Assembly: GCA_023380305.1 (NCBI GenBank) | Contig: JAMCQZ010000008.1 | Span: forward strand, 5,588-69,587 | Direction: 5' to 3' | DNA from: Patescibacteria group bacterium | Lineage (GTDB): Bacteria > Patescibacteriota > Minisyncoccia > UBA6257 > Colwellbacteraceae | DNA length: 64,000 nt | Shown here: positions 25,101-57,155 of the stretch, one piece after another | How positions within the stretch are numbered: position 1 is the first letter of the stretch | How the letters are laid out: every line of letters begins with the position of its first letter | Made by a program: the position numbers and the translations under genes | Notes under the pieces: generated by a model | What the model saw: the letters and a program-made list of their open reading frames with translations, nothing else | Told to the model about the DNA's origin: nothing | Databases searched by the model: none

Positions 25101-26262
25101 CCGCGCGAGTGCCGGCGGTGATCGGACCGGGATGATTCAAAAAAAGAGCGGAAGCGGAAGAAGGAGCGAAAGTAACGCTTCTTGTCGAAGAGACATCCAA
25201 TCCGGTTGATTGGGAATCGGTAAGAGACAAGGTGATGATCTCGGCAACATTATCCGTGATGTTTTTGGTGCCGACACCATTTGTAATCGTGATCAATCCG
25301 CCGCCGGTCGCCGAACCCGTGGTGTTTAAGGTAACACCTTGATTGTAGGTTGTATCAACGCTGCCGTAGCTATCTTGAGCCTGGATAGTGATTGTAAGCG
25401 GGACGCCGGCTGTTCCTGGTCCCGGATCCAAGATGACGAATTTAGTGGCGGAAACAATCACAGTTAGCAAGTCTGTTCCCGGAGTGAGCGCTCCAGAAGA
25501 AGCGGTGATGGTCCAGGTGCCGGCTTTGTCATCCGTATACCAGAAATTGGCCGATGATGAACCATTATTAATATTGATTGAGGTGATGATATTGCCTCCG
25601 CTTCCCGCGTCATAAAAATTAAAATTGCCGGTGGAATTGCTCGATAGCGAAACGCCAATTGTTCCGCTGGTCACCAAATTGCCGAAAGAATCCTTGCGGG
25701 TGACGGTATAGGCCGCGCGAGTGCCGGCCGAGATTGTCCCCGGATGGTTTAAAAAAAGAGCCGAGGCGGAAGCGGGGTTAACAATCAAATTGTCAGTGCC
25801 GGAAGTAAATCCGGATTGAGAAGCGGTAATCGTCCAAGTCCCGGCGAGCTCGTCGTAGTACCAAAAATTAGCGGAAGACGATCCATCAGGAATAGTGACC
25901 GAAGTGATGATGTTGCCCCCGGAAGCGGCATCATAGAATTTCTTGTTAGCTCCAGTTGAAGAGCTCGACAGATTGACGACAGTCGAACCGATTGTCACCA
26001 AATTGCCGAAAGAATCCTTGCGGGTGACGGTATATCCCGCGCGAGTGCCGGCGGTGATCGGGCCGGGAGAATTAAGGGTAAAAACCGAAGCCACGTCAGT
26101 TACCATCACCGTCGGTGAAGAAGCAATATTAGTTAAAGTTCCGGAATCGGAAACTCTCGATTGGGTGGTAAAAACAGAATTGCCGACCGTACTCGTGGCC
26201 GTGGCGCCGCTTGCTCCGCCGCCAGCTCCGTAGATAACGGTAATGGTTTGCGGAGAAGCCAA
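22162..26262 (-). CDS. Giant repeat-rich surface protein ending in a type-I dockerin (C-terminal portion of a split gene)
   Basis: 1366 aa. Ten Ig-like repeats in A-A-B-A-A-B-A-B-A-B order, Pro-rich linker, beta-sandwich region, then DLNGDGVVDVKDLSIF...DFNGDGVVDVKDFSIF, two canonical dockerin Ca-binding segments. Starts with TTG immediately after an in-frame TAG. Confidence 0.75.
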   Translation of the reverse strand: MASPQTITVIYGAGGGASGATATSTVGNSVFTTQSRVSDSGTLTNIASSPTVMVTDVASVFTLNSPGPITAGTRAGYTVTRKDSFGNLVTIGSTVVNLSSSSTGANKKFYDAASGGNIITSVTIPDGSSSANFWYYDELAGTWTITASQSGFTSGTDNLIVNPASASALFLNHPGTISAGTRAAYTVTRKDSFGNLVTSGTIGVSLSSNSTGNFNFYDAGSGGNIITSININNGSSSANFWYTDDKAGTWTITASSGALTPGTDLLTVIVSATKFVILDPGPGTAGVPLTITIQAQDSYGSVDTTYNQGVTLNTTGSATGGGLITITNGVGTKNITDNVAEIITLSLTDSQSTGLDVSSTRSVTFAPSSASALFLNHPGPITAGTRAGYTVTRKDSFGNLVTSGTTTVSLSSNSTGTNKAFYDAASGGNIITSINITAGNSSASFWYYDDFPETWTITASSGALTPGTDSLVVNPSSASALFLNHPGTISAGTRASYTVTRKDSFGNLVTSGTTTVSLSSNSTGNYKFYDAASGGNIITSIDITSGNSSANFWYFDDKAGTWTITVSSGVLTPGTDSLTVIVAATKFVIIQPANGTVDNPIAVTVQAQDSSGALAGTYSNSVTLVVSGSATGGGVVNIVNGEGTRNISDTVAETVNLSLTDSNSTGLDVSSTKSVIFAPGAVSAFFLNHPGSVVANSRASYTVTRKDQYGNLATSGVNTAYLYSSSSSANKKFYDAASGGNIIISINITAGNSSADFWYVDDTPGTYTITASDNVAAPDGAAGIADAADSLMVTSLPSTATKLVILPPTNNTVSSPVSVTIQAQRADNSVDTSFNNSVTIVVSGSATGGGVVTITNGTGTANITDSVAETVNLSLSDTAPTGLDVSSTQTVTFTAATVAKFALNNPGNMTAGARLGYTVSRLDSFNNTITTGVTIIYLYSTSTSSNKKFYDAATGSNVIQSIDIPNGASTANFWYYDDTAGTYVITVSDNATAPDGSAGITDASRSVVVAPLVVTATKFIMSVSPATAQTGSPISVTIKAVDNSNNLATTFNGSVTLVVSGSATGGGAVTIASGVGAASITDSVSETVNFSLSDTASTGLNVSATSLAIWSAAPPPPAAPTPVPGYFRADILFRGKAFPGAKVALVYLDNTTGVVKTLTQTTVTSSYGDFEVRFNGLTERGIYTYALSVTDRDGHSVQTRSYKLDVAGALFEENIVVSPTVSILRESVTKGDFATIQGYATPRSAISFTVDRQAFDYGTSADVAGFYKILFNTGNLNYGSHAVQTRQRLTDGRQSEFSPQVFFNVSQLFTTQTDLNGDGVVDVKDLSIFLSLWNSTDQAARKRIDFNGDGVVDVKDFSIFVRTVQG
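22600..25900. repeat. Long tandem coding repeats (about 290-330 nt units, two alternating repeat types) within the giant surface protein gene
   Basis: Repeated peptides on the coding strand, and repeated artefactual peptides on the antisense strand (e.g. AVSLKEKLTVSETLSV at 22838 and 23537; MTNLVAATITVSESVPGVS at 24467 and 25388). Confidence 0.7.
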
Positions 26263-38244: not shown

Positions 38245-40677
38245 TTATTTACGACGCGAAGAAAACCAATATTGACTGGCGTCGAGAAAAAGCATCATTC
38301 CGGCGGCGAAAATCGCGACTTCGATAAGTAAAGAGCATGTTATCGGCGTCAAATTCAAATTGTGTCCAATTTTGGGAACATAGAGACCGAGCAATAAAAG
38401 CCCGATGGCGCCGAACGCCCAAAGATCAATCGTTTTATTGTTCAAAAATCCGAGGCGCCAAATCGGCTCTTTGTCCGATCTCGAGATAAAAGCCAAAAAG
38501 ATATGCCCGAAGATCCAAGCACTGAAAGCCAAAGTCATGGCCGTGGAATCACCGTAGGCACGCCGGGTTATGAGATAGACGGCTGTTACCACGAAGAATA
38601 AAATCAGACCCGAAACGAAGATTCCAGCGACCGACTTGCGATTTAGAATCTTTCCCCTTGGATTCCTCGGCGGACGGTTGTAAATATCTTTTTCGGCCGG
38701 TTCGGCGACAAATCCGGCTGAAGCGGCTAAATCCATGAATAATTCCAGCACGATAATCTGGATCGGCGAGAAAGGCAGCGGCAAACCAATTAGGATCGGC
38801 AAAAGGAAAATCATGATTAAAGCAGCCTTGACTGCCAGATAATATTTAACTCCTTTGGATAAGTTGTCGTAGAACTTCCGGCCTTCGAATATCCCTCGAG
38901 CAAGCGTGACATAATTGTCGTCGGCGATGACGATCTCCGCGGCTTCTTTGGCGACATCAGTGCCCTTGATTCCCATGGCGATACCGATATCAGCCGCTTT
39001 CAAGGCTAAGACATCGTTTACTCCGTCTCCAGTCACCGCCACCACTTCTCCATTTTTTTGAAGGGCTTTGACTAACCGATATTTATGTTGGGGCGTCGCG
39101 CGCGCGAAAACCGAACAGGTTTTAACAGCTTCGCAAAGTTTGTCGTCATCTAAAGCGTCGATGTCTTTCCCAGTCAAAACCCGATTGGTCTTGAGGATAC
39201 CCACTTCCTGCGCAATATAACGGGCCGTTTCCCGATGATCCCCGGTTACCATGATCGTCCTGATACCGGCGTGAGTCGCAAGTGCGATTGTCCGTCCAAC
39301 GCCCTCGCGCGGAGGATCTTCGAAGCTGATAATTCCCGCGAGCCTCAAACCGCGTTCCAGATCGATTATGGGCCGCTTTTCGTCTCCGACAGCGAGGTTT
39401 TTAAGGGCTACGGCGATTACTCTCCTCCCCTTGGTGGTTTCTTCCTTCAAGCGTTCGGTCATTTCTTCGGGGACTTCGGCCGAAACGCCGAACACCTCTT
39501 CGGGTGCGCCGCTTAAATATAGCTCCGCTTGTCCATTATATTTGCGGACGACAGCTTTAGTTTTTCTCCGGTCGCTCACATTTTCTTCGGAAACTATCTC
39601 GCGAGAATCCCTCGCTATATTTCTTCCTTCGGCGAAGCTCAAAATACCCGCCTCTAAAGACGACTGACTATAAGCGGAGATGGCGGCCAAAGCGACTTTA
39701 ATAATTTCTTTTTCCCGGGACGCGGGATAAACGCCGGCGACCTTCATCGCAGCTTCGGTAAGCGTGCCGGTTTTATCGGTTACGATCACTGTGGCGTTTC
39801 CCAACACTTCGGCGGACTTCAATTTTTTGACCAGAAAATTGTTTTTCGATAAAGAATAAGATCCGAGTCCCAGAACCATAGTGATGATTATCGGCAATTC
39901 TTCGGGGATGGTCGCGAAGGCCAACGACAATCCCGTCAATACCATCAACCTCGCGTCTCCGCCGCGGAGAACACCTATAAGAGGAATGATGATCGAGAAA
40001 AACAAAGCGACGTAGACAAATCTACCGGACAAGGATTTCATTTCAAGTTGCAATCCGGTTTTCGGAGGCGCGATCGTTTTCAAAGCGGCGGCGATCTGGC
40101 CGAATTTGGTCTTCGCGCCGGTTGTCGTCACTTTTAATCTCCCTTCTCCGGAGACGATGATCGTTCCGGCATAAACCGCGCTGCCCTTCGTCTTTTCCTC
40201 CGATAATGATTCTCCGGTCAGAGAAGATTCATCCGCCTGCAGACCCAGCCCCTCTTCAACAACCCCGTCGGCTGCAACCCTGGTGCCGACTGCGAGCGTC
40301 AATATGTCGCCGGGAACAATGGTCCGCGGATCTATCTCGACAAAATTACCATCCCTTACCGCTTTGGCTTTGGGCGCGGCCAGATCGGCCAGAGCTGAGA
40401 TAGCTTTTTTCGCTCTGAACTCATTCCAAACTTCAGCAAACACGAGTAGGCTGATAACCACAAAAATAGTTACGGCGTCTTCCAGCCTTCCCCAAAGGCT
40501 GTAAACCACGCCGACCACGAAAAGCAGAAGGATCATTGGTTCGGTTATCTCGTGTCGACCGATAACCCAAAAACTTATTTTTTCTGGTTTGAAAATCTGA
40601 TTAGGACCGATCCTTCGGAGAAGCCGGTCCGCCTCAAAAGAAGTCAGACCGAACGTTTCTTGGTTGATGTTTTTCAT
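38245..40677 (-). CDS. Cation-transporting P-type ATPase (P2-type, Ca2+/Mg2+-like)
   Basis: DKTGTLT, TGDHRETA, GDGVNDVLALKAADIGIAMG. Ten TM helices. Start trimmed to MKNINQETF so it no longer overlaps the DUF2061 gene on the opposite strand. Confidence 0.85.
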   Translation of the reverse strand: MKNINQETFGLTSFEADRLLRRIGPNQIFKPEKISFWVIGRHEITEPMILLLFVVGVVYSLWGRLEDAVTIFVVISLLVFAEVWNEFRAKKAISALADLAAPKAKAVRDGNFVEIDPRTIVPGDILTLAVGTRVAADGVVEEGLGLQADESSLTGESLSEEKTKGSAVYAGTIIVSGEGRLKVTTTGAKTKFGQIAAALKTIAPPKTGLQLEMKSLSGRFVYVALFFSIIIPLIGVLRGGDARLMVLTGLSLAFATIPEELPIIITMVLGLGSYSLSKNNFLVKKLKSAEVLGNATVIVTDKTGTLTEAAMKVAGVYPASREKEIIKVALAAISAYSQSSLEAGILSFAEGRNIARDSREIVSEENVSDRRKTKAVVRKYNGQAELYLSGAPEEVFGVSAEVPEEMTERLKEETTKGRRVIAVALKNLAVGDEKRPIIDLERGLRLAGIISFEDPPREGVGRTIALATHAGIRTIMVTGDHRETARYIAQEVGILKTNRVLTGKDIDALDDDKLCEAVKTCSVFARATPQHKYRLVKALQKNGEVVAVTGDGVNDVLALKAADIGIAMGIKGTDVAKEAAEIVIADDNYVTLARGIFEGRKFYDNLSKGVKYYLAVKAALIMIFLLPILIGLPLPFSPIQIIVLELFMDLAASAGFVAEPAEKDIYNRPPRNPRGKILNRKSVAGIFVSGLILFFVVTAVYLITRRAYGDSTAMTLAFSAWIFGHIFLAFISRSDKEPIWRLGFLNNKTIDLWAFGAIGLLLLGLYVPKIGHNLNLTPITCSLLIEVAIFAAGMMLFLDASQYWFSSRRK

Positions 40678-40742
40678 TTTAACAAAAGGCTGATGACAAT
40701 TTTTAGCTATAATCCGATTGACCGTTGCTTTATACTGAATCC

Positions 40743-40970
40743 ATGGACAACCAAATATCATCTTCATTGGCGGAAACTCCCCTAAGGTCGGCGGCTAAGA
40801 CTATAAGCTACCGGTTGATTATCATCATTCTGGATTTTGCTTCGATTTACTTTTTTACCAGGAGCGTCGGTGTTGCCACTTCGTTTGTTATTGTCAGCAA
40901 CATTTACACCACCATCGCATATTACATCCACGAAAGGGCCTGGAATCGGATTGATTGGGGCAAAAAGTGA
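40743..40970 (+). CDS. DUF2061 membrane protein
   Basis: ...SYRLIIIILDFASIYFFT...AYYIHERAWNRIDWG matches DUF2061. Confidence 0.6.
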   Translation: MDNQISSSLAETPLRSAAKTISYRLIIIILDFASIYFFTRSVGVATSFVIVSNIYTTIAYYIHERAWNRIDWGKK

Positions 40971-48400: not shown

Positions 48401-48724
48401 TTAGCCGGCGGTCGCGCCAAGAGGCTTGGGAGCAAGTTCGCCCGCTCCCAAAAGGCCGGCGACATAGATTACGATGCCGCAGGCGAAAACCCGGTTTCCG
48501 GCGTCAGTCTTCAGCTTGAAAGAATTGTCTTTGGGATTCAGGCTGATTTCCACCGAAAACTTGGCCTTCTCCGGGACGGGGCGACGATCTTCACCCCTTC
48601 CCGTCTGGTCGCTGACAAAATCGGCCAGCATCTTTTGCAGGACTTCCGGCGTTGCGTTCGTAAAGACCTCGACCTTGTCCGGATGACCGCAATCGAAAAC
48701 GATCTTCGCGACGAGGATAGCCAT
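48401..48724 (-). CDS. Conserved small protein, paralog 1 of a 3-member family (about 107 aa, C-terminus ...GELAPKPLGATAG)
   Basis: MAILVAKIVFDCGHPDKVEVFTNATPE... Shares alignable sequence, leader and terminator with 48914..49249 and 52337..52660. Confidence 0.6.
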   Translation of the reverse strand: MAILVAKIVFDCGHPDKVEVFTNATPEVLQKMLADFVSDQTGRGEDRRPVPEKAKFSVEISLNPKDNSFKLKTDAGNRVFACGIVIYVAGLLGAGELAPKPLGATAG

Positions 48725-48800
48725 TGCGAGCCCTCCTTTTTGGACTTGGATCAGCCATAAACTGACATATTTGGCTGGAAAAGTCAAAGGGATTAAATAA
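48725..48800 (-). promoter_or_regulatory. Conserved 5' leader/promoter region of paralog 1
   Basis: Minus strand: TTGACTTTTCCAGCCAAATATGTCAGTTTATGGCTGATCCAAGTCCAAAAAGGAGGGCTCGCAATG. Contains TTGACT (a -35-like element) and GGAGGG RBS. Near-identical copies precede the other two paralogs. Confidence 0.45.
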
Positions 48801-48913: not shown

Positions 48914-49249
48914 TTAGCCGGCGGTTGCGCCAAGAGGCTGGGGAGCGAGCTCGCCTGATGTCAAAAAGCAGAAAGCATCGCCCAAGATGATACAGTCCAC
49001 GGTCCTATTTCCGGTATTGCTCTTCATCTCGGAAGAATTGTCTTTAAGACTCCTCCTGAGATTCACCGTGAACATAACATCTGTGTCGACGGGACTGTGA
49101 TCTGATCCTTCCTCTTCCTGCTTCTTCACCAGGGGCCGCAAAGCATCAGCCACGAGTTCCTTCAAGGCCTCCAACGTTCCATTGGTAAAGACAGCGATCC
49201 CGTCCGGCCTGGCAGCAAAGAACACTATCGTCGCAACGGAACCATCCAT
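48914..49249 (-). CDS. Conserved small protein, paralog 2 (C-terminus ...GELAPQPLGATAG)
   Basis: MDGSVATIVFFAARPDGIAVFTNGTLEALKELVADAL...; same leader and a similar terminator to paralog 1. Confidence 0.6.
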   Translation of the reverse strand: MDGSVATIVFFAARPDGIAVFTNGTLEALKELVADALRPLVKKQEEEGSDHSPVDTDVMFTVNLRRSLKDNSSEMKSNTGNRTVDCIILGDAFCFLTSGELAPQPLGATAG

Positions 49250-50055: not shown

Positions 50056-52131
50056 TTAAATTTTTTCCCGACGCAGAAGCGCCGCGTTGAAAGCCACGAT
50101 GATGGTGCTCAAAGACATGAACACGGCTGACAAGGCCGGGTCGAGAATCACTCCTCTCGAAACCAACACGCCGGCAGCCAAGGGCAGAGCGACAACATTG
50201 TATCCGGTCGCCCAGAAAAGGTTTTGGATCATCTTGTTATAGGTCAGCCGGGATAAATGGATGATCTTCACGATATCCCTCGGATCGTTCCTGACGAGGA
50301 TTATTCCGGCCGATTCGATGGCCACGTTTGTTCCGGCGCCGATGGCGATACCGAGATCCGCCTGGGTCAGAGCCGGCGCGTCATTGATCCCGTCGCCGAC
50401 CATCGCCACTTTAAGGCCGCGGTTCTGCAATTCTTTGACTTTTTCCGATTTTTGATCGGGTAGGACCCGGGCGAAATATTCATCGATGCCGAGCTCCGCA
50501 GCCACCCATTTTGCCACGTCTTCGGAATCACCGGTGATCATCGCCGACTGAACGCCCATTTCCTTGAGCGCGCCGACGGCCTGCCGCGATTCTTCCCGAA
50601 TAATATCCGCAAGAGCCATCGCGCCCAAAAACGCCCCGTCTTTGATCGCAAAAACAACGGTTTGGCCTTTTTCACCCGCGTCCTTGATTCGTCCGGAAAG
50701 GTTACCGGGAAGATCGACGCCGGCGCTCTCCAAAAGCGCCTGGCCGCCGACCATGACTTCCTTTCTATCGATAAAGGCTTTTACGCCCCGACCCTTCAAA
50801 GTTTCAAGTTTTTCCGGCTCCTGGAGCCGAAGCCTCCGCGACTTCGCTTCAGAGACAATAGCTTTAGAGACAGGATGCCCGGAAAAAGCGTCGAGGGAAG
50901 CGGCAGACTGCAAGACTTCGTCTTCCGTATGATTGTCCGCGGCCCAGACACTAACGACCCCGAATTCGCCCTTGGTCAGCGTCCCTGTTTTATCGAAAAG
51001 CACTATATCAATAGTCCGGCCGGCTTCGAGGGCCAGCCTCTGTTTCACCAAAAATCCGTTCTGCGCCGCCTTGGTCGTCGAAATGGAGGCAACCAAAGGC
51101 ACGGCCAAACCCAGGGCGTGCGGGCAGGCGATAACCAAAACAGCCACCAACCTGGCTACGGCAAATTCAACCTTGGCGCCGGCCGCGATCCAGGCTATAA
51201 GCGTTATAACGCCGCCTGCCACGGCGATGACCGTAAGATAAAAGGCGGCGCGGTCGGAGAGCACCTGCAACCGGGATTTCGAGCTTTGGGCTTCGGCGAC
51301 CAGGCGCATGACCCCGGCCAAAAATGTTTTTTCGCCGATATTGGTAACCCTGATCTTCAAAGCGCCGTCGCCGTTAATCGTTCCGGCGATAACCTGGTCG
51401 CCCGGGTTCTTATAAACCGGATTCGATTCGCCGGTAACCATAGACTCATTGACAGCCGATTCCCCTTCCATGACGGCGCCGTCGGCCGGAATCTTGGCGC
51501 CGGGTCTCACAAGCAAAATGTCGTTTTCCTTGAGTTCGGCAAGCGGAACCGTTTCGATCTTGCCGTTCCGGATCGTCTCCGCGGTATCGGGAAGCAGTTT
51601 TGAAAGCTCTTTGAGCGCGCCCTGGGCGACCGAGACCGCGCGCATCTCGAGCCAATGACCGAGAAGCATGACGGTGATCAAGGTCGTCAATTCCCAAAAC
51701 AGGGCGTCCGCGCCGGCAAAGACCGCATAAAGGCTCCAAAGATACGCCGCCGAGATGGCGATGCCGATAAGCGTCATCATGCCAGGAAGCCTGCTTTTTA
51801 TTTCCCTCCAGGCTCCGACCAGAAAAATCCAGCCGCCGTAGAAAAAGACTATCGAGCCGAGCGCGAGCGGGATATACGCCGACCCGTAGAATCCGGGCGG
51901 AGACCATTTAAAAATCTTTCCGATAATATCCGAATATAAAACGACCGGGACGGTAAGGACGAGGCTGACCCAGAATTTCCGGAAAAGCGTTTCCGCGCTG
52001 TGGTCGGCGTGCTTGTTCTCCGCGGCTTTTGCCGCTTCTCCGTGGCCCTGATGATCATGATGATCGTGCGTTTTCATAAATGAACTAATATGCGATGATC
52101 GCGATGTTTTTATATTATCAAAAAATCGCAC
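50056..52131 (-). CDS. copB: Heavy-metal translocating P1B-type ATPase (CopB-like: CPH motif and His-rich N-terminus)
   Basis: N-terminal MKTHDHHDHQGHGEAAKAAENKHADH; TM6 CPH (VIACPHALGLAVPL); DKTGTLT; GDGINDAPAL. Substrate (Cu2+/Cu+) is inferred from the motif class only. Confidence 0.85.
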   Translation of the reverse strand: MRFFDNIKTSRSSHISSFMKTHDHHDHQGHGEAAKAAENKHADHSAETLFRKFWVSLVLTVPVVLYSDIIGKIFKWSPPGFYGSAYIPLALGSIVFFYGGWIFLVGAWREIKSRLPGMMTLIGIAISAAYLWSLYAVFAGADALFWELTTLITVMLLGHWLEMRAVSVAQGALKELSKLLPDTAETIRNGKIETVPLAELKENDILLVRPGAKIPADGAVMEGESAVNESMVTGESNPVYKNPGDQVIAGTINGDGALKIRVTNIGEKTFLAGVMRLVAEAQSSKSRLQVLSDRAAFYLTVIAVAGGVITLIAWIAAGAKVEFAVARLVAVLVIACPHALGLAVPLVASISTTKAAQNGFLVKQRLALEAGRTIDIVLFDKTGTLTKGEFGVVSVWAADNHTEDEVLQSAASLDAFSGHPVSKAIVSEAKSRRLRLQEPEKLETLKGRGVKAFIDRKEVMVGGQALLESAGVDLPGNLSGRIKDAGEKGQTVVFAIKDGAFLGAMALADIIREESRQAVGALKEMGVQSAMITGDSEDVAKWVAAELGIDEYFARVLPDQKSEKVKELQNRGLKVAMVGDGINDAPALTQADLGIAIGAGTNVAIESAGIILVRNDPRDIVKIIHLSRLTYNKMIQNLFWATGYNVVALPLAAGVLVSRGVILDPALSAVFMSLSTIIVAFNAALLRREKI

Positions 52132-52336: not shown

Positions 52337-52660
52337 TCAGGCCTTAGCCTTGCCAAGCGGCTGGGGTTTGATCGCGCCGGAATCAATCAGGTCGATCACT
52401 TGGGCGATGATGCCGCAGGTTAGACCCTTGTTGCCGGTGTCGGTTTTGGTCTGGAAAATATCTTCTGAAAGATCCAGACTGACCTCCACCGAAAAATGGT
52501 TCTTTTCCGCGGCCGGGTTCTTGTCCTCGCCGGTCCCCATCTGGCTTCGAAGATACTCGGTTAGCATGTCGGTCAAGGCCTCGTCTTTGGCGTTCGTAAA
52601 GACCTGCGTTTGGTCCTGATGCTCGCAATCAAAAGAGATTCTGGCGATCAGGATAGCCAT
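52337..52660 (-). CDS. Conserved small protein, paralog 3 (C-terminus ...GAIKPQPLGKAKA)
   Basis: MAILIARISFDCEHQDQTQVFTNAKDEALTDML... aligns along full length with paralog 1. Confidence 0.6.
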   Translation of the reverse strand: MAILIARISFDCEHQDQTQVFTNAKDEALTDMLTEYLRSQMGTGEDKNPAAEKNHFSVEVSLDLSEDIFQTKTDTGNKGLTCGIIAQVIDLIDSGAIKPQPLGKAKA

Positions 52661-52740
52661 CGCGACCCCTCCCTGATTGGACTTGGATCAGCCCCAAACT
52701 GACATATTTAGCTGGAAAAGTCAAAACAACCCTAGACTGC
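52661..52740 (-). promoter_or_regulatory. Conserved 5' leader/promoter region of paralog 3
   Basis: Minus strand TTGACTTTTCCAGCTAAATATGTCAGTTTGGGGCTGATCCAAGTCCAATCAGGGAGGGGTCGCGATG. Same element as upstream of paralogs 1 and 2, with a few substitutions. Confidence 0.45.
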
Positions 52741-53002
52741 TCGCCGGCGCCATTACCATCCTGAAATAACACCCGGAACCTCACATCGTCGCTTTGCTCC
52801 TCTCTCACACCTCTCGGTTTGTCCGACAACTGCCGGATCCGTTGCGGGGAACAATCAAGTTCCCCGACCCCCTCCTATACTCAGCCGGGATTAGAGCTAA
52901 TAAAAATACCCGTTACAAGAGTATTTTTAGGTAATTATCCCTCGATTTCAAGTAGTGTATTTGTTATCATACAGATGCCACTAGTTTAATAGAAAAAACG
53001 CC

Positions 53003-53700
53003 ATGAAGTACACAATCGACGATTTCAAAAAGGAGTTTACTACGGATCAGGATTGCATGAACTACATCATTCGTACTCGATACATGGAAAAGAAGCTATA
53101 CCCGATCAAGGGGCGTCCTTCTGTTTATGCTCAAGCTGGCAGGAATGCCAAGCAGGTGTCGCCTTTGGCAGGTACAATTTTTAATAAGAGCGATACTCCG
53201 CTTCACCTATGGTTCTATGCGATCTTCCTCTTGACTACTTCTAAGAATGGCGTGTCCGCGAAGGAGCTTCAAAGACATCTTGGCGTTACCTACAAGTGTG
53301 CGTGGAGGATTACTCACCGGATAAGGAGAGGTCTCATAGATAAAGGTATCTCACTCTTTGGTACAGTCAAGGTCGATGAAACGTACATTGGAGGCGAATA
53401 AGAAAGCTATAAAAAAGGTCAAAAATAATAACCAACGAATTTCCCGCATACAATAAGGTGTTAAAAAGCGGCTATAGCCACAAGAAAATCAGGCACGCTA
53501 TCAAAGAGTACGTTCGTTAAAAGGTGCACAGGAATACAATTGAGGGATTTCGGAGTCAGTTGAAGCGTTCAATCAACGGGACTTACCATGCAGTTTCTCT
53601 AAAGCATTTATAGGCTTACGTTGATGAGTTTTCTTGGAGGTATAACCGCCGTCACTCGGAGAAACCTTTGTTTGCTTTGGCTCTCGCAAGGGTTGCACGA
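53003..53700 (+). mobile_element. Decayed IS1595-family (ISXO2-like) transposase gene remnant
   Basis: N-terminal ORF ...AGTIFNKSDTPLHLWFYAIFLLTTSKNGVSAKELQRHLGVTYKCAWRITHRIRRGL...KVDETYIGGE matches the IS1595 transposase N-region, but the zinc-ribbon cysteines are lost and most of the DDE core is absent. C-terminal remnants (GYSHKKIRHAIKEYVR*, VHRNTIEGFRSQLKRSINGTYHAVSLKHL*, AYVDEFSWRYNRRHSEKPL) lie in different frames separated by stop codons. Confidence 0.65.
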
Positions 53701-53760
53701 GCTTAGATAGAATTTTATGAAATTGTTTTCGTGTAGTCATGTTATACTGTTTTTTCCAAA

Positions 53761-56256
53761 CTATTTTTCGATGGCCATAATCTCTTTCTGAGCTTCCCAT
53801 TTCTTCATGAACGCTTGTCCAATCTTCGTTTTTATTTTTTCGCGCTCCTTAGAGTTTCTTGCCACTGGCAAAAGTATTTCTTCCCAGCGATTCCCTATAT
53901 TGGGAAGCGTTGTATCTATCATAATTTTGTTATAGAGCTGTTGTTTCGTTAGATGATGGGAGAATAAGTAAAGCAGATAAAAAGCGTCTATGCCATATTT
54001 ATTTTCTTCATTTATAACTCGGAATATGAGACTATGATGGTTCAAAAGTATGCCGGTGTCGGTAGGCGAAAGTAATGCCACATCACCGATCCTATAACTT
54101 CCTTCTTTGACGAATACAATATCTTTTACTTTCAGTTCAACGCCATTGCCTTTTACGCTCTCATACACTTCGCGCGGCACCATAGCAGTCGGATTCTTGT
54201 ATACCTCCCAATCAATAATATCCGCCGCACGGACATAAGGAATTTCACCCCTCCCTTTGAATTCGCTTGGTGGTGCACCATGTCCACGGAATTTCTTTAT
54301 GATTCCTTGATCGATTAAGTCTTTTACCGATACAAATTCCAGCCCCAATTTCTTTGCTTCTTCATACAGTCCCTCAATTTTTTTCTGCCAATAATATCTG
54401 GGAACATAAATGTTGTCTTTTACGTTTGAAATATCTACAGAAAACACACACTTATTCTTAAGGCTAGAAACGTCGTCTAATTCATTCCGAATTACTATAG
54501 TGTCGTCCCATATCTCATCGGTAAATCTACAACTTTTCTCATCATATCGGTACATCTTCTCTCCTCTGTGATCATGGCCCATTTCCTCTGCCACAGCCAT
54601 GATTATCGGGTTTTGTTGTGGTTTCCCTTTTTCAAGGATTAGTAAAACAGTCTTGGCATTACAATGGGGACGAAAGGTATTATGAGGGAGGTCAATTACA
54701 GCTTTTATATTGTTATCTTTTTTAAGGTATTCAAGAATATATTTCGTGCTGGGAGCATGGAAATAAGTCTCGGGCAATACGATAGCAAGTTTGCCGCCGT
54801 CGTTGAGCATTTCCAAACACCGCTCAATAAAAAGCTCCTGTATGGCTGTATCTTTAGCTTGGTCTGTCTTAATATACACGCCATCTTTTTCTATCCATTT
54901 ATGGCCAAGGTCAAAATGCTGCGCATCTTCTTTAAAGATTTTTGTTTTACTGCCAAAGGGGGGGTTGGTGAGGATTACGTCGAATTTTTTGAATTTATCA
55001 TCCTCTACGAATAAATCTTTAGCTTTCCCTTCAAATTCTTCTGCTGTATGGAGAGAATTCTGCTGTGCGATACCGCTCTGCCCATCCCCCATGATCACCA
55101 TGTAAGCTTTGGCGATTTTTACCAGATCGATTTCTTTATCTAAGCCGAAGAAGTTTTTTTGAGCGATCTCTTTTTTAAGCGCATCAAGATTCGGAGCACC
55201 TTTATATTTCTTACTTTTGTCCATCACAAGCCAGATATGCTCTAGGGCATGGATAAGAAAACCGCCGCTACCACAAGCCGGATCGAATATGGTCTGGCCT
55301 GGTTGTGGATCGATTATTTTTATAGCCGTTTTGACTACCTCCCGTGGCGTGAAGAATTCTCCTTTTTCTCCGACAAGTTTACTTTCGGCGAATACCTCAA
55401 AGGCGTCTCCTACCGTATCTTTATCAGTTTTAAGTAAACTATATTTCTCTAGCTCACCCACTACGCGAGTGATTGATTTATCATCAAGTTTTATCTCTTC
55501 TTCTTTATCGAAAATTCCATCTCCCACGAGTTCGCTCTTAACCTGATCAAAGAGCGTCTTGACACGCTTGCTTACTTCCCTCGGATTTTCATTGAAACCG
55601 ATGCGGAATTTCGGTAGGGCATCCTGCTCATACCTCTCATCCCATATTTTGCAGAAAATAAGACGTATCATCTCATTCCCAAGCTTCTCACGTCGACTGA
55701 TATTCGTGTTTGAATATAAGGTATTGAGCAATCGCCGAAAAGTGAGCTTAAGGTTGCTCGCCGGAGATAACTTATTCTTGGCAATACGCCCTATATCCTC
55801 AAAGGTCTCTCCATTCTTGGGAATTTGAAAGACAAAATTAGTCTTCACCTCTCCGCTTATCGGATCACGATATAGGTATTCTATATCCGATCCATTAGTC
55901 CACACGCCCCATAGAGCGGACGAGGCAGACATATAGCTTGCAAGCTGTTTGACGCCCTCCTTCTTCGTTGGTCGTTTCGTCTCAACTATGCCTAAAATGT
56001 CTCGGCTCTGCTCACGCTTTTCTTTGTTAGAAGTCTTGTATACAACAATATCAGCACGCTCTTTATTCTTGGCAGAGCTTATCTCCCCGCGTTGGATATA
56101 AACTTCAATATCCATCCGCGCATAATCGTAATCATAGTCATTGAAAAGTACCTCCTCATATTCTTGTCTGACTCTCTCTTCTGGTTTTCTTATGTCTACT
56201 AGCCTGCCAGTTGCTTTATCTTTGATGCAGTCGTCTTTAAGAGTTTCGATCCTCAT
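53761..56256 (-). CDS. Single-polypeptide restriction-modification-type enzyme: N-terminal PD-(D/E)xK (HsdR_N-like) nuclease domain + gamma-class N6-adenine DNA methyltransferase + C-terminal target-recognition region (Type IIG-like)
   Basis: N-terminus RVRQEYEEVLF...ERADIVVY...GIVETKRP (D...ExK). MTase motif I FDPACGSGGFL and motif IV LTNPPFG. About 300 aa C-terminal TRD-like region. No hsdS or hsdR partner nearby. Confidence 0.55.
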   Translation of the reverse strand: MRIETLKDDCIKDKATGRLVDIRKPEERVRQEYEEVLFNDYDYDYARMDIEVYIQRGEISSAKNKERADIVVYKTSNKEKREQSRDILGIVETKRPTKKEGVKQLASYMSASSALWGVWTNGSDIEYLYRDPISGEVKTNFVFQIPKNGETFEDIGRIAKNKLSPASNLKLTFRRLLNTLYSNTNISRREKLGNEMIRLIFCKIWDERYEQDALPKFRIGFNENPREVSKRVKTLFDQVKSELVGDGIFDKEEEIKLDDKSITRVVGELEKYSLLKTDKDTVGDAFEVFAESKLVGEKGEFFTPREVVKTAIKIIDPQPGQTIFDPACGSGGFLIHALEHIWLVMDKSKKYKGAPNLDALKKEIAQKNFFGLDKEIDLVKIAKAYMVIMGDGQSGIAQQNSLHTAEEFEGKAKDLFVEDDKFKKFDVILTNPPFGSKTKIFKEDAQHFDLGHKWIEKDGVYIKTDQAKDTAIQELFIERCLEMLNDGGKLAIVLPETYFHAPSTKYILEYLKKDNNIKAVIDLPHNTFRPHCNAKTVLLILEKGKPQQNPIIMAVAEEMGHDHRGEKMYRYDEKSCRFTDEIWDDTIVIRNELDDVSSLKNKCVFSVDISNVKDNIYVPRYYWQKKIEGLYEEAKKLGLEFVSVKDLIDQGIIKKFRGHGAPPSEFKGRGEIPYVRAADIIDWEVYKNPTAMVPREVYESVKGNGVELKVKDIVFVKEGSYRIGDVALLSPTDTGILLNHHSLIFRVINEENKYGIDAFYLLYLFSHHLTKQQLYNKIMIDTTLPNIGNRWEEILLPVARNSKEREKIKTKIGQAFMKKWEAQKEIMAIEK

Positions 56257-56340
56257 ACTACAATTATCGCACGTAAATCACTATTCCTCCTACTTAAGTT
56301 TTCAACACTTGAAATGAGGGGATACTCACCATTTTTTATT

Positions 56341-56358
56341 GCTCCGACACCTGGAATC
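56341..56358. repeat. Direct repeat of tRNA-Asn 3' end (17 of 18 nt identical to 56792..56809)
   Basis: gctccgacacctggaatc versus tRNA gctccgacacctggattc. att-like duplicate bounding the GIY-YIG #1 segment. Confidence 0.6.
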
Positions 56359-56408
56359 TCACTGCTCGCCAGCGCCACTTTCGTCTTGAAAATGCCTGGA
56401 ATCAAACA

Positions 56409-56660
56409 TTAATTATTCAGATAATTTCTTAATTGTTTGTTAATATATTTTCGGCCGGATCCTCCTTTTAAAAACTTTTCTCTACCTATGGCGTCGCTCT
56501 TATTAAGATACCCCTCAAAATATATCAATCTATATGTTTTTCCTCGAGTGGTCTTAGTGTCTCCAGATTTATGACCTTTAAGCCGTTTTTTGAGATCAGC
56601 CGTAAAACCAATATACAATCCCCTGGTTTCTGTATTTTCAAGGACGTAGACAAAATACAT
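56409..56660 (-). CDS. GIY-YIG nuclease family protein (minimal, 83 aa)
   Basis: YFVYVLENTETRGLYIGFTADLKKRLKGHKSG...REKFLKG, a GIY...YIG module with conserved Arg and Glu. Confidence 0.7.
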   Translation of the reverse strand: MYFVYVLENTETRGLYIGFTADLKKRLKGHKSGDTKTTRGKTYRLIYFEGYLNKSDAIGREKFLKGGSGRKYINKQLRNYLNN

Positions 56661-56789
56661 AATTCAAGTGTCGCGCAAAATAAATTGCTTCGCAACTTAT
56701 CGCCCGACCACGAAATGTGGCTTAGTTACTACGATTGCCTGCGCCACGAGATATTAAAATACCCCCTGGGGGTATTTTAATATTTTTCG

Positions 56790-56864
56790 TGGCTCCGACA
56801 CCTGGATTCGAACCAGGAACCCGCTCCTTAACAGGGAGACGCTCTACCGTTGAGCTATGTCGGA
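56790..56864 (-). tRNA. tRNA-Asn (anticodon GTT), 75 nt including encoded CCA
   Basis: Minus strand TCCGACATAGCTCAACGGTAGAGCGTCTCCCTGTTAAGGAGCGGGTTCCTGGTTCGAATCCAGGTGTCGGAGCCA. 7-bp acceptor stem, D arm GCTC/GAGC, anticodon loop CTGTTAA, T arm CCTGG-TTCGAAT-CCAGG. Confidence 0.85.
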
Positions 56865-57109
56865 ATATGCTGTTTAATGAACTCCCGACCTCTAAAGCTT
56901 TTTAGCTGCTTTTCTCTTTTAAGAGCATCTGCTCTATTCATACATTCCTCTTGATATATTAATACCCATTCACCACTATATCTAGCAGTATAACTTTTAT
57001 CGAAGATCTTATTATTATGCAACTTTAATCTCCCTATTAAATCACTTGTCTGTCCTATATAGATTTTCTTATGATTCTTGTTAAAGATTGCGTAAACGAT
57101 GTAATTCAT
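56855..57109 (-). CDS. GIY-YIG nuclease family protein (minimal, 84 aa)
   Basis: NYIVYAIFNKNHKKIYIGQTSDLIGRLKLHNN...REKQLKSFRG. Its stop codon overlaps the 5' end of the tRNA by 10 nt. Confidence 0.7.
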   Translation of the reverse strand: MNYIVYAIFNKNHKKIYIGQTSDLIGRLKLHNNKIFDKSYTARYSGEWVLIYQEECMNRADALKREKQLKSFRGREFIKQHIPT

Positions 57110-57111
57110 TT

Positions 57112-57155
57112 AAGACGCTCTACCTCCGCCGGCTGGCGGAGAGCTTGTGTCGGAA
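57112..57155 (-). repeat. Partial duplicate of tRNA-Asn 5' half with an inserted palindromic hairpin
   Basis: Plus strand aagacgctctacc-TCCGCCGGCTGGCGGA-gagcttgtgtcgga versus tRNA gagacgctctacc-gtt-gagctatgtcgga. Begins 2 nt beyond the GIY-YIG #2 start codon. Confidence 0.55.

What the first reader, a model, noticed from the sequence alone, without database searches (positions are those of the whole stretch)
53761..56256. Orphan single-chain nuclease-methyltransferase-TRD enzyme (Type IIG-like) next to decayed IS and tRNA-targeted insertions
The 831-aa protein combines an N-terminal PD-(D/E)xK nuclease-like domain, a gamma-class N6-adenine methyltransferase (FDPACGSGGFL ... NPPFG) and a C-terminal region of about 300 aa sized like a target-recognition domain. 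No hsdR or hsdS partner is present. It could be a MmeI-like restriction-and-modification enzyme, or a degenerate solitary methyltransferase. Its position between an IS remnant and tRNA-associated GIY-YIG cassettes marks this region as a defence/mobile hotspot.
Basis: partly seen in the sequence, partly recalled or inferred. Interest (0 to 1): 0.6.

Follow-up and report, generated by a model that had tools for sequence, protein, structure and literature searches.

The report
Restriction-methylase gene riding an IS1595 transposon
The 831-aa gene encodes a one-protein nuclease + adenine-methylase + DNA-recognition enzyme (Type IIG/IIB-like), and it is not a free-standing orphan: it is the cargo of a 3.4-kb IS1595-family transposon whose transposase has decayed here, an element type that has carried this same enzyme into many bacterial and archaeal phyla.

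Summary
ORF 53761-56256 (-) is intact, 831 aa, with an N-terminal PD-(D/E)xK nuclease domain (HSDR_N_2), a gamma-class N6-adenine methylase (DPACGSGGF, NPPF) and a C-terminal HsdS-type recognition domain. No R or S partner exists in the window or beside homologs.

The nuclease triad D69/E92/K94 plus Q104xxxY108 is kept in over 90% of diverse relatives. It aligns with BsaXI residues D90/E105/K107, which are essential for cleavage. The closest solved structure is RM.BsaXI (Type IIB), not MmeI. MADS MAD2 scores below its cutoff.

New here: the "decayed IS" and the enzyme gene form one unit. Inverted repeats at 52930-52953 and 56307-56330 bracket exactly the IS1595 transposase remnant plus the gene. 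In 20 of 81 loci an IS1595 transposase abuts the gene. One Spirochaete genome has three identical 3.54-kb transposase+enzyme copies with perfect TIRs and 8-bp target duplications.

Best reading: a self-contained R-M-half-S enzyme, probably dimeric and restriction-proficient, carried by a now immobile IS1595 "transporter IS". Cleavage activity and the recognition site are untested. This is a new member of known kinds; interest is moderate.

The parts
52930..52953 (.). Left terminal inverted repeat of the element (GGTAATTATCCCTCGATTTCAAGT)
   Evidence: It is the top-ranked inverted repeat in 52600-56800, 19/24 complementary to 56307-56330. Only 8 of 2000 shuffles of the flanks reach its score. 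The terminus GGTAATTAT resembles the termini of related elements (GGAATTAT, GGGAATTAT).
53003..53401 (+). IS1595-family transposase pseudogene, N-terminal piece (132 aa, ends VDETYIGGE then a stop)
   Evidence: My IS1595 transposase profile hits it at E 3.7e-36 and tblastn with intact neighbours' transposases gives E 6e-36. It aligns with the N-terminal part of intact 287-303-aa transposases of L012/L064. The zinc-ribbon cysteines are lost.
53470..53703 (+). IS1595-family transposase pseudogene, C-terminal piece, in a different frame and interrupted by two stop codons
   Evidence: Frame translations. With the stops removed it matches Pfam DDE_Tnp_IS1595 positions 95-153, E 2.9e-13, 50.5 bits. 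The central DDE region is missing.
53761..56256 (-). Intact 831-aa passenger gene: single-chain nuclease / N6-adenine methylase / specificity enzyme
55762..56256 (-). N-terminal PD-(D/E)xK (RecB/HsdR-type) nuclease domain, aa 1-165: E51, D69, E92-x-K94, Q104xxxY108
   Evidence: Pfam HSDR_N_2. D69 is kept in 83/83, E92 in 77/83, K94 in 78/83, Q104 and Y108 in 80/83 diverse relatives. The profile aligns D69/E92/K94 with BsaXI D90/E105/K107, which are essential for cleavage (PMC11997821). QxxxY is the RecB-family/HsdR motif (PMC2475608).
55357..55761 (-). Helical connector, aa 166-300 (HsdM N-terminal-like)
   Evidence: The AF2 model is all-helical here. phmmer aligns 175-545 to RM.BsaXI 219-623.
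54577..55356 (-). Gamma-class N6-adenine methyltransferase domain, aa 301-560 (motif I DPACGSGGF 325-333, motif IV NPPF 431-434)
   Evidence: Pfam N6_Mtase E 2.5e-42. The motifs are invariant in 44 homologs.
53764..54399 (-). Single HsdS-type target-recognition domain flanked by helices (aa 620-636 and 802-830), i.e. half an S subunit
   Evidence: hhalign against TRDs of relatives that hit Pfam Methylase_S: 97.4%, E 9e-12. Secondary structure. Some close homologs carry precomputed PF01420 hits.
56307..56330 (.). Right terminal inverted repeat (reverse complement GGTGAGTATCCCCTCATTTCAAGT), 51 bp beyond the enzyme's start codon

Best explanation
Window 52930-56330 is a 3.4-kb IS1595-family 'transporter IS'. 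It is a transposon with short terminal inverted repeats, one transposase gene and one passenger gene. The transposase has decayed by internal deletion, a frameshift and stop codons, so this copy is stuck. The passenger is intact.

The passenger encodes a self-contained restriction-modification enzyme in one chain. The order is: a RecB/HsdR-type PD-(D/E)xK nuclease, a helical connector, a gamma-class N6-adenine methylase, and one HsdS-type recognition domain between two helices. This is 'nuclease-HsdM-half-HsdS', the Type IIG arrangement and half of a Type IIB enzyme.

Inferred mechanism. Two chains pair through the helices that flank the TRD, giving an assembly equivalent to the (RM)2S of BsaXI/BcgI. 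The two identical TRDs read a symmetric bipartite site. With SAM the enzyme methylates one adenine on each strand. On unmodified DNA the N-terminal nucleases cut at a fixed distance from the site. Because recognition, protection and attack are in one gene, the IS can carry a complete system into any host. This would explain the family's full-length conservation, TRD included, from Patescibacteria and DPANN archaea to Proteobacteria and Spirochaetes.

Shown: domain homologies, motif conservation, solitariness, the TIR-bounded unit, and mobility of the unit in another genome. Inferred: dimerisation, a symmetric site, actual cleavage, and any benefit to the host or the IS.
For: Enzyme. Domains are supported. 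The nuclease residues are conserved across relatives down to ~29% identity. They align with experimentally essential BsaXI residues (PMC11997821). The best fold match is RM.BsaXI at E 1.8e-24 over 662 columns, followed by the M+half-S enzyme 7eew and the Type IIG enzyme BpuSI. The family is modular. Some relatives lack the nuclease. Others have a different Methylase_S TRD of the same size, or two TRDs (~1100 aa), as expected for a specificity module. An engineered HsdM-half-HsdS fusion dimerises and reads a palindromic bipartite site, and adding the HsdR nuclease would give the Type IIG arrangement (PMC6158711).

Solitary. No partner is found in the window. None is found in 6 metagenomic contexts, in 80 reference-genome loci, or on plasmids and a prophage.

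Transposon. An IS1595 transposase or remnant abuts the gene in 20 of 81 loci, in two fixed arrangements, with none elsewhere in 687 kb of flanks. Three 99.97-100% identical 3537-bp transposase+enzyme copies occur in one Spirochaetia MAG, with 24-29-bp TIRs and 8-bp target duplications. Perfect TIR plus 8-bp duplication is seen in L038 and L078. TIR score >=18 occurs in 8/69 loci against 0/131 controls. The window's TIRs bracket exactly remnant+gene, with p~0.004. Element GC is 0.41 against 0.497. Transporter ISs are an established concept for IS1595 (Siguier 2009, as cited in PMC11891212 and PMC7986276). Transposon-like R-M units with TIRs and 8-bp duplications were reported earlier (PMC2853133).
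Against: There is no biochemical or methylome evidence for this family, so cleavage, SAM dependence, the recognition site and oligomeric state are all inferred. In the window the TIRs are imperfect (19/24). The flanking 8-mers match only 6/8, and the right one is part of a duplicated tRNA-Asn 3' flank, so it cannot be read cleanly as a target duplication. No sister copy with the same ends and no empty site was found in metagenomes. About 64% of homolog loci have no adjacent transposase (another 9 have transposases of other families), so the gene is often no longer in a recognisable IS, or never was. Controller-type HTH genes, which are common next to toxic restriction genes, are rare here: 0/80 reference loci, and seen only in L006 and L090-L093. 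N-M-only relatives, including MADS MAD2 which is described only as a methylase, also keep the nuclease motif. Conservation of the motif is therefore not proof of restriction activity in this architecture.
Confidence: 0.72

Rival explanations
1. Methyltransferase only. The protein methylates a specific site, and the N-terminal PD-(D/E)xK domain no longer cuts DNA; it serves for DNA binding, regulation or partner docking. As IS cargo the methylase would then act as an epigenetic or anti-restriction ('vaccinating') passenger, not as a restriction system.
For: All public annotations call it only 'N-6 DNA methylase'. About 33 of 150 representative relatives lack the N-domain altogether, so methylation does not need it. 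MADS MAD2, the best NCBIfam match, is an HSDR_N-methylase fusion that the MADS paper treats as the methylase of a multi-gene system. Controller proteins are rare next to the gene. An engineered nuclease-HsdM fusion was methylation-active but restriction-inactive (PMC6158711).
Against: E51/D69/E92/K94/Q104/Y108 are kept in 93-100% of diverse N-domains down to ~29% identity. A non-catalytic domain would not be expected to preserve exactly the metal-binding and catalytic residues. These residues align with residues essential for BsaXI cleavage. The N-domain is as conserved as the methylase domain.
Confidence: 0.2
2. Chance neighbours in this window. An IS1595 copy inserted next to a resident methylase gene and then decayed, and the 24-nt inverted repeat is fortuitous.
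For: The window's TIR is imperfect (19/24) and the target duplication is ambiguous. No sister copy or empty site was found. The surrounding 53-58 kb stretch is a general insertion-prone, low-GC stretch with GIY-YIG cassettes and tRNA fragments.
Against: The same convergent transposase/enzyme arrangement with 15-159-bp gaps recurs in other Patescibacteria and an Oligoflexia genome (L012, L013, L038, L064, L082). L038 has perfect TIRs and an 8-bp duplication enclosing both genes. IS1595 homology occurs only abutting the gene, 20 places against 0 in 687 kb. The inverted repeat is the best in the region, lies just outside both genes, has p~0.004, and shares the family terminus GG-AATTAT.
Confidence: 0.06
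3. The protein is a component of a multi-gene system (Type I R-M or a MADS-like defence system), and its partners are encoded elsewhere in the genome.
For: The best NCBIfam hit is MADS MAD2 (361 bits). PADLOC lists Type I and Type II methylase models. JGI names for homologs say 'type I restriction enzyme M protein'.
Against: The MAD2 score is half the curated cutoff of 720. No mad, hsdR or hsdS genes occur in the 64-kb window or next to any of about 90 homolog loci. The protein carries its own TRD and nuclease, so it needs no S or R subunit. A 3.5-kb transposable unit with only transposase plus this gene moves on its own.
Confidence: 0.02

Closest known systems
Type IIB restriction-modification enzymes of the BcgI/BsaXI group (RM subunit; PDB 8w0p)
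   Same: They share the domain order: N-terminal PD-(D/E)xK nuclease, helical connector, then gamma N6-adenine methylase. RM.BsaXI is the best sequence and fold match in the PDB. The catalytic D/E/K align. Recognition is through HsdS-type TRDs. There is no ATP motor.
   Different: BsaXI and BcgI use a separate S subunit with two TRDs, and single-chain Type IIB enzymes carry TRD1-CR1-TRD2-CR2 (PMC11997821). This protein has one TRD fused in cis, so it would need to dimerise to read a bipartite site. Sequence identity is only ~22%, and no BsaXI 'paddle' was identified. Cutting on both sides of the site is untested.
Type IIG single-chain R-M-S enzymes (BpuSI, MmeI)
   Same: One polypeptide carries nuclease, methylase and a single TRD, and stands alone. 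BpuSI is a significant fold match. The arrangement equals 'nuclease-HsdM-half-HsdS' (PMC6158711).
   Different: It is not in the MmeI family: the MmeI_N/hel/TRD/C Pfam domains are absent and MmeI_Mtase is below its cutoff. The TRD is HsdS-type with flanking helices. The nuclease is of the HSDR_N_2/RecB type with QxxxY.
Engineered and natural HsdM-half-HsdS fusions (Bower et al. 2018, PMC6158711; V. vulnificus 'intact MTase', PDB 7eew)
   Same: A methylase fused to a single TRD plus conserved helix. The engineered fusion dimerises and methylates a palindromic bipartite site. 7eew is the next best distinct fold match after BsaXI (rank 4, behind three BsaXI entries). About 33 of the 150 representative relatives have exactly this nuclease-less form.
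   Different: Those proteins lack the nuclease domain and need a separate HsdR for restriction. This protein carries its own nuclease.
MADS MAD2 methyltransferase (NCBIfam NF047738)
   Same: HSDR_N-type domain fused to an N6-adenine methylase. It is the best NCBIfam match, covering residues 7-579.
   Different: The score of 361 is far below the cutoff of 720. MAD2 has no fused TRD and works within an eight-gene operon. No mad genes are present here.
IS1595-family transporter ISs (tIS; Siguier, Gagnevin & Chandler 2009) and the transposon-like R-M units of Furuta et al. 2010 (PMC2853133)
   Same: A DDE_Tnp_IS1595 transposase, short TIRs, 8-bp target duplications and a passenger gene inside the ends. 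Furuta et al. describe R-M genes bounded by TIRs with 8-bp duplications, including a Neisseria unit with a BcgI-like gene, an S gene and a transposase-like gene.
   Different: Here the passenger is a complete one-gene R-M-S enzyme. The same unit is found across many bacterial and archaeal phyla, with proof of recent transposition (three identical copies). I could not check whether this particular passenger is already catalogued in ISfinder or REBASE. From memory only, the ends resemble those listed for the ISNwi1/ISNha5 subgroups; this was not verified.

Membership tests
Type IIG (single-chain R-M-S) restriction-modification enzymes | Nuclease, methyltransferase and one target-recognition domain in a single polypeptide | tested here: met
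   HSDR_N_2 plus N6_Mtase. The C-terminal TRD is shown by hhalign at 97.4% to Methylase_S-positive TRDs. The definition is as given in PMC6158711.
Type IIG (single-chain R-M-S) restriction-modification enzymes | Intact nuclease catalytic residues | tested here: met
   D69, E92 and K94 are invariant in 44 close homologs and kept in 93-100% of 83 diverse N-domains. They align with BsaXI D90/E105/K107.
Type IIG (single-chain R-M-S) restriction-modification enzymes | SAM-dependent or SAM-stimulated cleavage at a fixed distance from the site, and methylation of the same site | not testable with these tools
   This needs purified protein or methylome data.
Type IIB (BcgI/BsaXI-like) | RM core (nuclease - helical connector - gamma methylase) homologous to known Type IIB RM subunits | tested here: met
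   phmmer E 2.1e-21 to 8w0p_A. Foldseek E 1.8e-24 over 662 columns. The N-domain profile hits the BsaXI nuclease domain at E 5.6e-5.
Type IIB (BcgI/BsaXI-like) | Two TRDs (a separate S subunit or fused TRD1-CR1-TRD2-CR2) reading a bipartite site | tested here: not met
   There is only one TRD in the chain and no S gene in the window. A homodimer could supply two TRDs, but that was not tested. Relatives of ~1100 aa do have two TRDs.
Type IIB (BcgI/BsaXI-like) | Cleavage on both sides of the recognition site | not testable with these tools
   Biochemical assay required.
MmeI family | MmeI_N, MmeI_hel, MmeI_Mtase, MmeI_TRD and MmeI_C domains | tested here: not met
   Only MmeI_Mtase is hit, at 25.1 bits, below the cutoff of 27. 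The other MmeI domains are not hit even at E<=1.
MADS (MAD2 methyltransferase) | Score at or above the NCBIfam equivalog cutoff | tested here: not met
   361.5 bits against a cutoff of 720.
MADS (MAD2 methyltransferase) | Embedded in the mad1-8 operon | tested here: not met
   The neighbours are an IS remnant, GIY-YIG ORFs, a tRNA and a DEAD-box helicase. No conserved neighbours are found in ~90 homolog loci apart from transposases.
Type I restriction-modification (HsdM) | Separate HsdS and motor-containing HsdR genes | tested here: not met
   None are found in the window or beside homologs. TIGR00497 hsdM scores 64.9 against a cutoff of 242.75.
IS1595-family transporter IS (tIS) | DDE_Tnp_IS1595 transposase inside the element | tested here: met
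   The window carries a pseudogene at 53003-53401 plus 53470-53703. Intact transposases with DDE_Tnp_IS1595 and Zn_ribbon_IS1595 are present in relatives.
IS1595-family transporter IS (tIS) | Terminal inverted repeats enclosing the transposase and the passenger | tested here: met
   In the window, 52930-52953 and 56307-56330 match 19/24, p~0.004. In relatives, perfect or near-perfect 24-29-bp TIRs are found in L038, L040/41/43, L022, L059 and L078.
IS1595-family transporter IS (tIS) | 8-bp target-site duplication | tested here: inconclusive
   This is met in relatives: TAAAGAAT in L038, TATTTTTT in L043, AATAAAAT in L078, and AAATTAAA/AATAGGTA exchanged between L040 and L041. In the window the flanks TATTTTTA/ATTTTTTA match 6/8, and the right one belongs to a tRNA-flank repeat.
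IS1595-family transporter IS (tIS) | Evidence of transposition as a unit (several identical copies at different sites) | tested here: met
   Three 3537-bp copies, 99.97-100% identical, lie at three sites of one Spirochaetia MAG. This was not tested for the window's own host, where the transposase is dead.

The most novel reading that the evidence does not exclude
The IS1595 element and its one-gene R-M-S enzyme form a co-adapted selfish pair. The enzyme is not just useful cargo. It actively favours the transposon, for example by killing or cutting cells and DNA molecules that lack the element's methylation, or by cutting unmethylated empty sites and so promoting copying of the element. This would have let one enzyme with one conserved specificity spread across the bacteria/archaea divide, especially among small-genome Patescibacteria and DPANN. 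It would be a protein-only counterpart of the nuclease-assisted transposon maintenance known for TnpB/IscB.
Probability: 0.15. Interest if true: 0.7.

Novelty: new member of a known kind. Interest (0 to 1): 0.42.

Why it matters
The result changes how this gene should be read. It is not an unexplained orphan methylase in a "hotspot". It is the surviving payload of a dead transposon.

It also identifies a large family that is annotated everywhere only as "N-6 DNA methylase". About 8000 close hits were scored (the candidate cap) and 9773 representative clusters matched. Members look like complete, portable one-gene restriction-modification systems. They are the natural form of the nuclease-HsdM-half-HsdS construct that Bower et al. 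proposed as an evolutionary intermediate between Type I and Type II systems.

If active, these enzymes would be compact new restriction specificities. They would also give a clear case of an insertion sequence moving a whole defence system between phyla and domains, including the poorly understood Patescibacteria and DPANN archaea. For annotation, transposase adjacency and TIRs give a simple rule for recognising such units.

Tried and rejected
- E. coli genome search with 52-59 kb: no match, so the window is not enterobacterial.
- MADS membership: rejected, since the score is half the cutoff and there is no operon.
- MmeI family: rejected.
- Pfam on the C-terminal 236 aa alone gave nothing. 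A profile-profile comparison was needed.
- A strict regular expression for the TIR terminus found only one locus, because the termini vary. It was replaced by a motif-free inverted-repeat search with displaced-window controls.
- For the convergent Patescibacterial loci L012, L064 and L082, only weak TIR candidates were found.
- Metagenome scan for sister copies carrying the window's TIR: 0 hits.
- Metagenome scan for an empty site: 0 hits.
- Sigma-70 promoter and terminator scan of the element: no better than shuffles.
- Controller-protein (small HTH) association: seen in L006 and L090-L093 but in 0 of 80 reference loci, so it was dropped as a general feature.
- I could not retrieve the ISfinder/Siguier reviews to verify the subgroup end consensus, so that assignment stays unverified.
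- The Synechocystis paper that mentions HSDR_N concerns a different, Eco57I-like 1100-aa protein.
- The designed repeat protein 7ue2 that topped the N-domain PDB search is a low-complexity artefact.
- The 840-aa ORF at 38245-40767 is a P-type ATPase, not a paralog.
Full report
**1. The observation**

Both quoted methylase motifs are present (DPACGSGGF at 325-333, NPPF at 431-434). Pfam finds HSDR_N_2 at residues 25-145 (E 4.8e-18) and N6_Mtase at 278-624 (E 2.5e-42).

The identical protein is on record as 'MAG: N-6 DNA methylase [Patescibacteria group bacterium]'. The window is not E. coli. Its other large ORFs are housekeeping genes: ligase, TGT, TyrRS/TrpRS-type synthetase, P-type ATPases, NrdD/NrdG, FtsZ/FtsA. 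GC falls from about 0.50 to 0.41 across the gene and its neighbour.

**2. The enzyme**

*N-terminal domain.* This is a PD-(D/E)xK nuclease fold of the HsdR/RecB type.
- D69, E92 and K94 are invariant in 44 homologs of 63-78% identity.
- In 83 diverse N-domains, down to ~29% overall identity, D69 is kept in 83, E92 in 77, K94 in 78, and Q104 and Y108 in 80 each.
- QxxxY is the RecB-family motif described for the EcoR124I HsdR nuclease (PMC2475608).
- A profile of the N-domain hits the endonuclease domain of RM.BsaXI (E 5.6e-5). D69, E92 and K94 fall on BsaXI D90, E105 and K107, and E51 falls within two residues of E73. Those four BsaXI residues are the ones whose mutation abolishes cleavage (PMC11997821).

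*Whole-protein matches.* An AlphaFold2 model from 44 sequences has mean pLDDT 81.9 and pTM 0.76. Its best PDB match is RM.BsaXI (E 1.8e-24, 662 columns). The next distinct matches are the V. vulnificus M+half-S 'intact MTase' 7eew and the Type IIG enzyme BpuSI. phmmer also ranks RM.BsaXI first.

*C-terminal region.* The last 236 aa give no Pfam hit on their own. They are nevertheless homologous to the C-terminal regions of relatives that do hit Methylase_S above cutoff (hhalign 97.4%, E 9e-12, 208 columns). The model shows a helix (620-636), a mixed alpha/beta domain and a long terminal helix (802-830). This is the layout of half an HsdS subunit.

*Family modularity.* Among the best 150 cluster representatives:
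- about 37 have all three modules;
- about 33 lack the nuclease domain (M+TRD);
- 50 have N+M without this TRD, of which about 13 carry a different 270-330-aa C-terminus (those tested are Methylase_S TRDs) and two carry roughly double that, with two Methylase_S stretches.

This is how a specificity module behaves. It places the protein between Type I methylases, single-chain Type IIB enzymes and Type IIG enzymes. Bower et al. state that fusing the HsdR nuclease to an HsdM-half-HsdS fusion gives the Type IIG domain arrangement. They also showed that the HsdM-half-HsdS fusion dimerises and methylates a palindromic bipartite site (PMC6158711).

*Families rejected.* Only MmeI_Mtase is hit among MmeI domains, and it is below cutoff. 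MADS MAD2 is the best NCBIfam hit but scores 361 bits against a cutoff of 720. MADS is an eight-gene operon, and none of it is present here.

**3. It stands alone**

My own profiles for the nuclease, methylase and two TRD types find nothing else in the 64-kb window. Six homologs on long metagenomic contigs have unrelated neighbours each time. Distant full-length relatives (34-38% identity) on plasmids of Ligilactobacillus and Aerococcus, and in a Helicobacter heilmannii prophage record, are also solitary.

**4. What the neighbours show**

I fetched 80 reference-genome loci with full-length homologs of 44-71% identity. They span Patescibacteria, DPANN and Thermoplasmata archaea, Dehalococcoidia, Proteobacteria, Bdellovibrionales, Spirochaetes, Planctomycetota, Acidimicrobiia and endosymbionts. 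I clustered all neighbouring ORFs.

The only recurrent neighbour family is an IS1595-family transposase, confirmed by Pfam as DDE_Tnp_IS1595 plus Zn_ribbon_IS1595. This is the same family as the remnant next to the window's gene.

Counting remnants by tblastn, 20 of 81 loci have it, always abutting the gene with gaps of -9 to 198 bp. There are two fixed arrangements: upstream on the same strand (14 loci) or downstream and convergent (6 loci, including the window). There is not one further IS1595-like place in the other 687 kb of flanks. Nine further loci, mostly archaeal, have transposases of other families next to the gene.

**5. The unit moves**

One Spirochaetia MAG has three copies of a 3537-bp segment, 99.97-100% identical, at three sites with unrelated flanks. 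The segment holds only the transposase and the enzyme gene.
- Its ends are perfect 24-bp inverted repeats (CGGAATTATCACTTTATAGGTTGA; 28 of 29 matches when extended).
- One copy is flanked by the 8-bp duplication TATTTTTT.
- The other two carry AAATTAAA and AATAGGTA exchanged between them, the signature of recombination between two copies.

Other loci agree. L038 has perfect 24-bp TIRs and the duplication TAAAGAAT. L078 has perfect TIRs and AATAAAAT. L022 and L059 have 24-31-nt TIRs. L010 is a 2.9-kb version with the transposase almost deleted. TIRs scoring 18 or more occur in 8 of 69 testable loci and in 0 of 131 displaced-window controls.

**6. The window's copy**

The best inverted repeat in 52600-56800 has arms at 52930-52953 (GGTAATTATCCCTCGATTTCAAGT) and 56307-56330 (reverse complement GGTGAGTATCCCCTCATTTCAAGT), matching 19/24. 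It lies 50 bp outside the transposase remnant's start codon and 51 bp outside the enzyme's start codon. Only 8 of 2000 shuffles do as well. Its terminus resembles the GG(G/A)AATTAT ends of the other elements.

The transposase is dead. A 132-aa N-terminal piece ends in a stop after VDETYIGGE. The central DDE region is missing. The C-terminal piece (53470-53703) is in another frame with two stops.

The 8-mers flanking the element (TATTTTTA and ATTTTTTA) match only 6/8. The right one belongs to a 28-nt duplicate of the tRNA-Asn 3' end and flank, so a target duplication cannot be asserted here. Metagenome scans for a sister copy and for an empty site found nothing.

**7. Mechanism**

*Shown:* a complete set of nuclease, methylase and recognition modules in one conserved chain; absence of partners; and carriage inside an IS1595-type unit that transposes in at least one genome.

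*Inferred:* the protein dimerises through the helices flanking its TRD, as HsdM-half-HsdS fusions do. This would give an assembly like the (RM)2S of BsaXI that reads a symmetric bipartite site, methylates an adenine on each strand, and cuts unmodified DNA at a fixed distance. A monomeric Type IIG mode on a short asymmetric site is the alternative.

The full-length conservation of the TRD across phyla suggests that one specificity travels with the element. Whether the nuclease is active is the main open point. The methylase-only rival gets about 0.2, because nuclease-less relatives exist, MAD2-type relatives keep the motif yet are described as methylases, and controller genes are rare.

**8. 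Comparison with what is known, and novelty**

Single-chain Type IIG/IIB enzymes are well known. Transporter ISs in the IS1595 family were defined in 2009 (Siguier et al., as cited in PMC11891212 and PMC7986276). Furuta et al. 2010 already reported R-M genes inside TIR-bounded units with 8-bp duplications, including a Neisseria BcgI-like unit with a transposase-like gene, and a link to IS1016, which from memory is an IS1595-family member (PMC2853133).

What I did not find in the papers I could search or read is this particular pairing: an IS1595 transposase with a one-gene R-M-half-S enzyme, spread across bacterial and archaeal phyla, with direct evidence of recent transposition. I could not query REBASE or ISfinder.

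I therefore file it as a new member of known kinds, of moderate interest. The main correction is that the enzyme gene and the 'decayed IS' are one element.

Noticed in passing
window 56331-57150: Two small GIY-YIG ORFs (56409-56660 and 56855-57109, both minus strand, 39% identical to each other) sit on either side of tRNA-Asn (56790-56864), with partial copies of the tRNA beyond them. Segment 56331-56358 repeats the tRNA 3' end plus its flank (56782-56809, 86%). Segment 57113-57124 repeats 56837-56848 exactly. The second ORF overlaps the tRNA 5' end by 10 nt. This looks like repeated GIY-YIG cassette insertion into or next to tRNA-Asn with regeneration of tRNA ends. A similar 85-aa GIY-YIG ORF lies ~460 bp upstream of the homolog in L006 (5281-5538).
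   Followed up: partly
window 48401-48787, 48914-49249, 52337-52660 (all minus strand): Three paralogous small ORFs (128, 111 and 107 aa) have similar starts (MAILVAKIVFDCGHPD... / MAILIARISFDCEHQD...) and similar C-terminal tails (...GELAPKPLGATAG / ...GELAPQPLGATAG / ...GAIKPQPLGKAKA). They flank the heavy-metal P-type ATPase gene (50056-52131). The two that were tested have no Pfam match.
   Followed up: no
L040 6020-9556, L041 6020-9556, L043 6020-9556 (Spirochaetia MAG CBDAKK01): Three identical 3.54-kb IS1595+enzyme elements occur in one genome. Two of them, on the same contig, have swapped their 8-bp target duplications (AAATTAAA / AATAGGTA). This implies a large inversion by recombination between the two copies.
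   Followed up: yes
L014, L035, L066, L096, L007-L009 (archaeal homolog loci): In Thermoplasmata and DPANN archaea the same enzyme gene is instead flanked by IS6/IS240-type or SWIM-zinc-finger transposases, 77-300 bp away. The cassette may therefore be mobilised by more than one IS family. Ends were not mapped.
   Followed up: no
L090-L093 (contigs carrying P0005, 76% identical to the window protein): Twenty-two mostly 2-5-kb contigs share a fixed trio: a 103-aa ORF, the enzyme gene, and a convergent 69-aa HTH_3 ORF. The contigs break next to different transposases (rve, Transposase_mut). In L006 a 70-aa HTH_3 ORF ends 2 nt before the enzyme's start codon. These could be controller proteins, but none was found in the 80 reference loci.
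   Followed up: partly
window 22162-26262 (minus strand): A 1366-aa ORF whose only Pfam hit is a C-terminal dockerin type I domain, followed by a 575-aa ORF with a bacterial Ig-like domain. These may be surface proteins, and are unusual cargo for a small-genome Patescibacterium.
   Followed up: no
window 53573-53800 (minus strand): A 75-aa ORF overlaps the 3' end of the enzyme gene by 40 nt. It is simply the antisense of the transposase remnant, has no family hit, and is most likely not a gene.
   Followed up: partly
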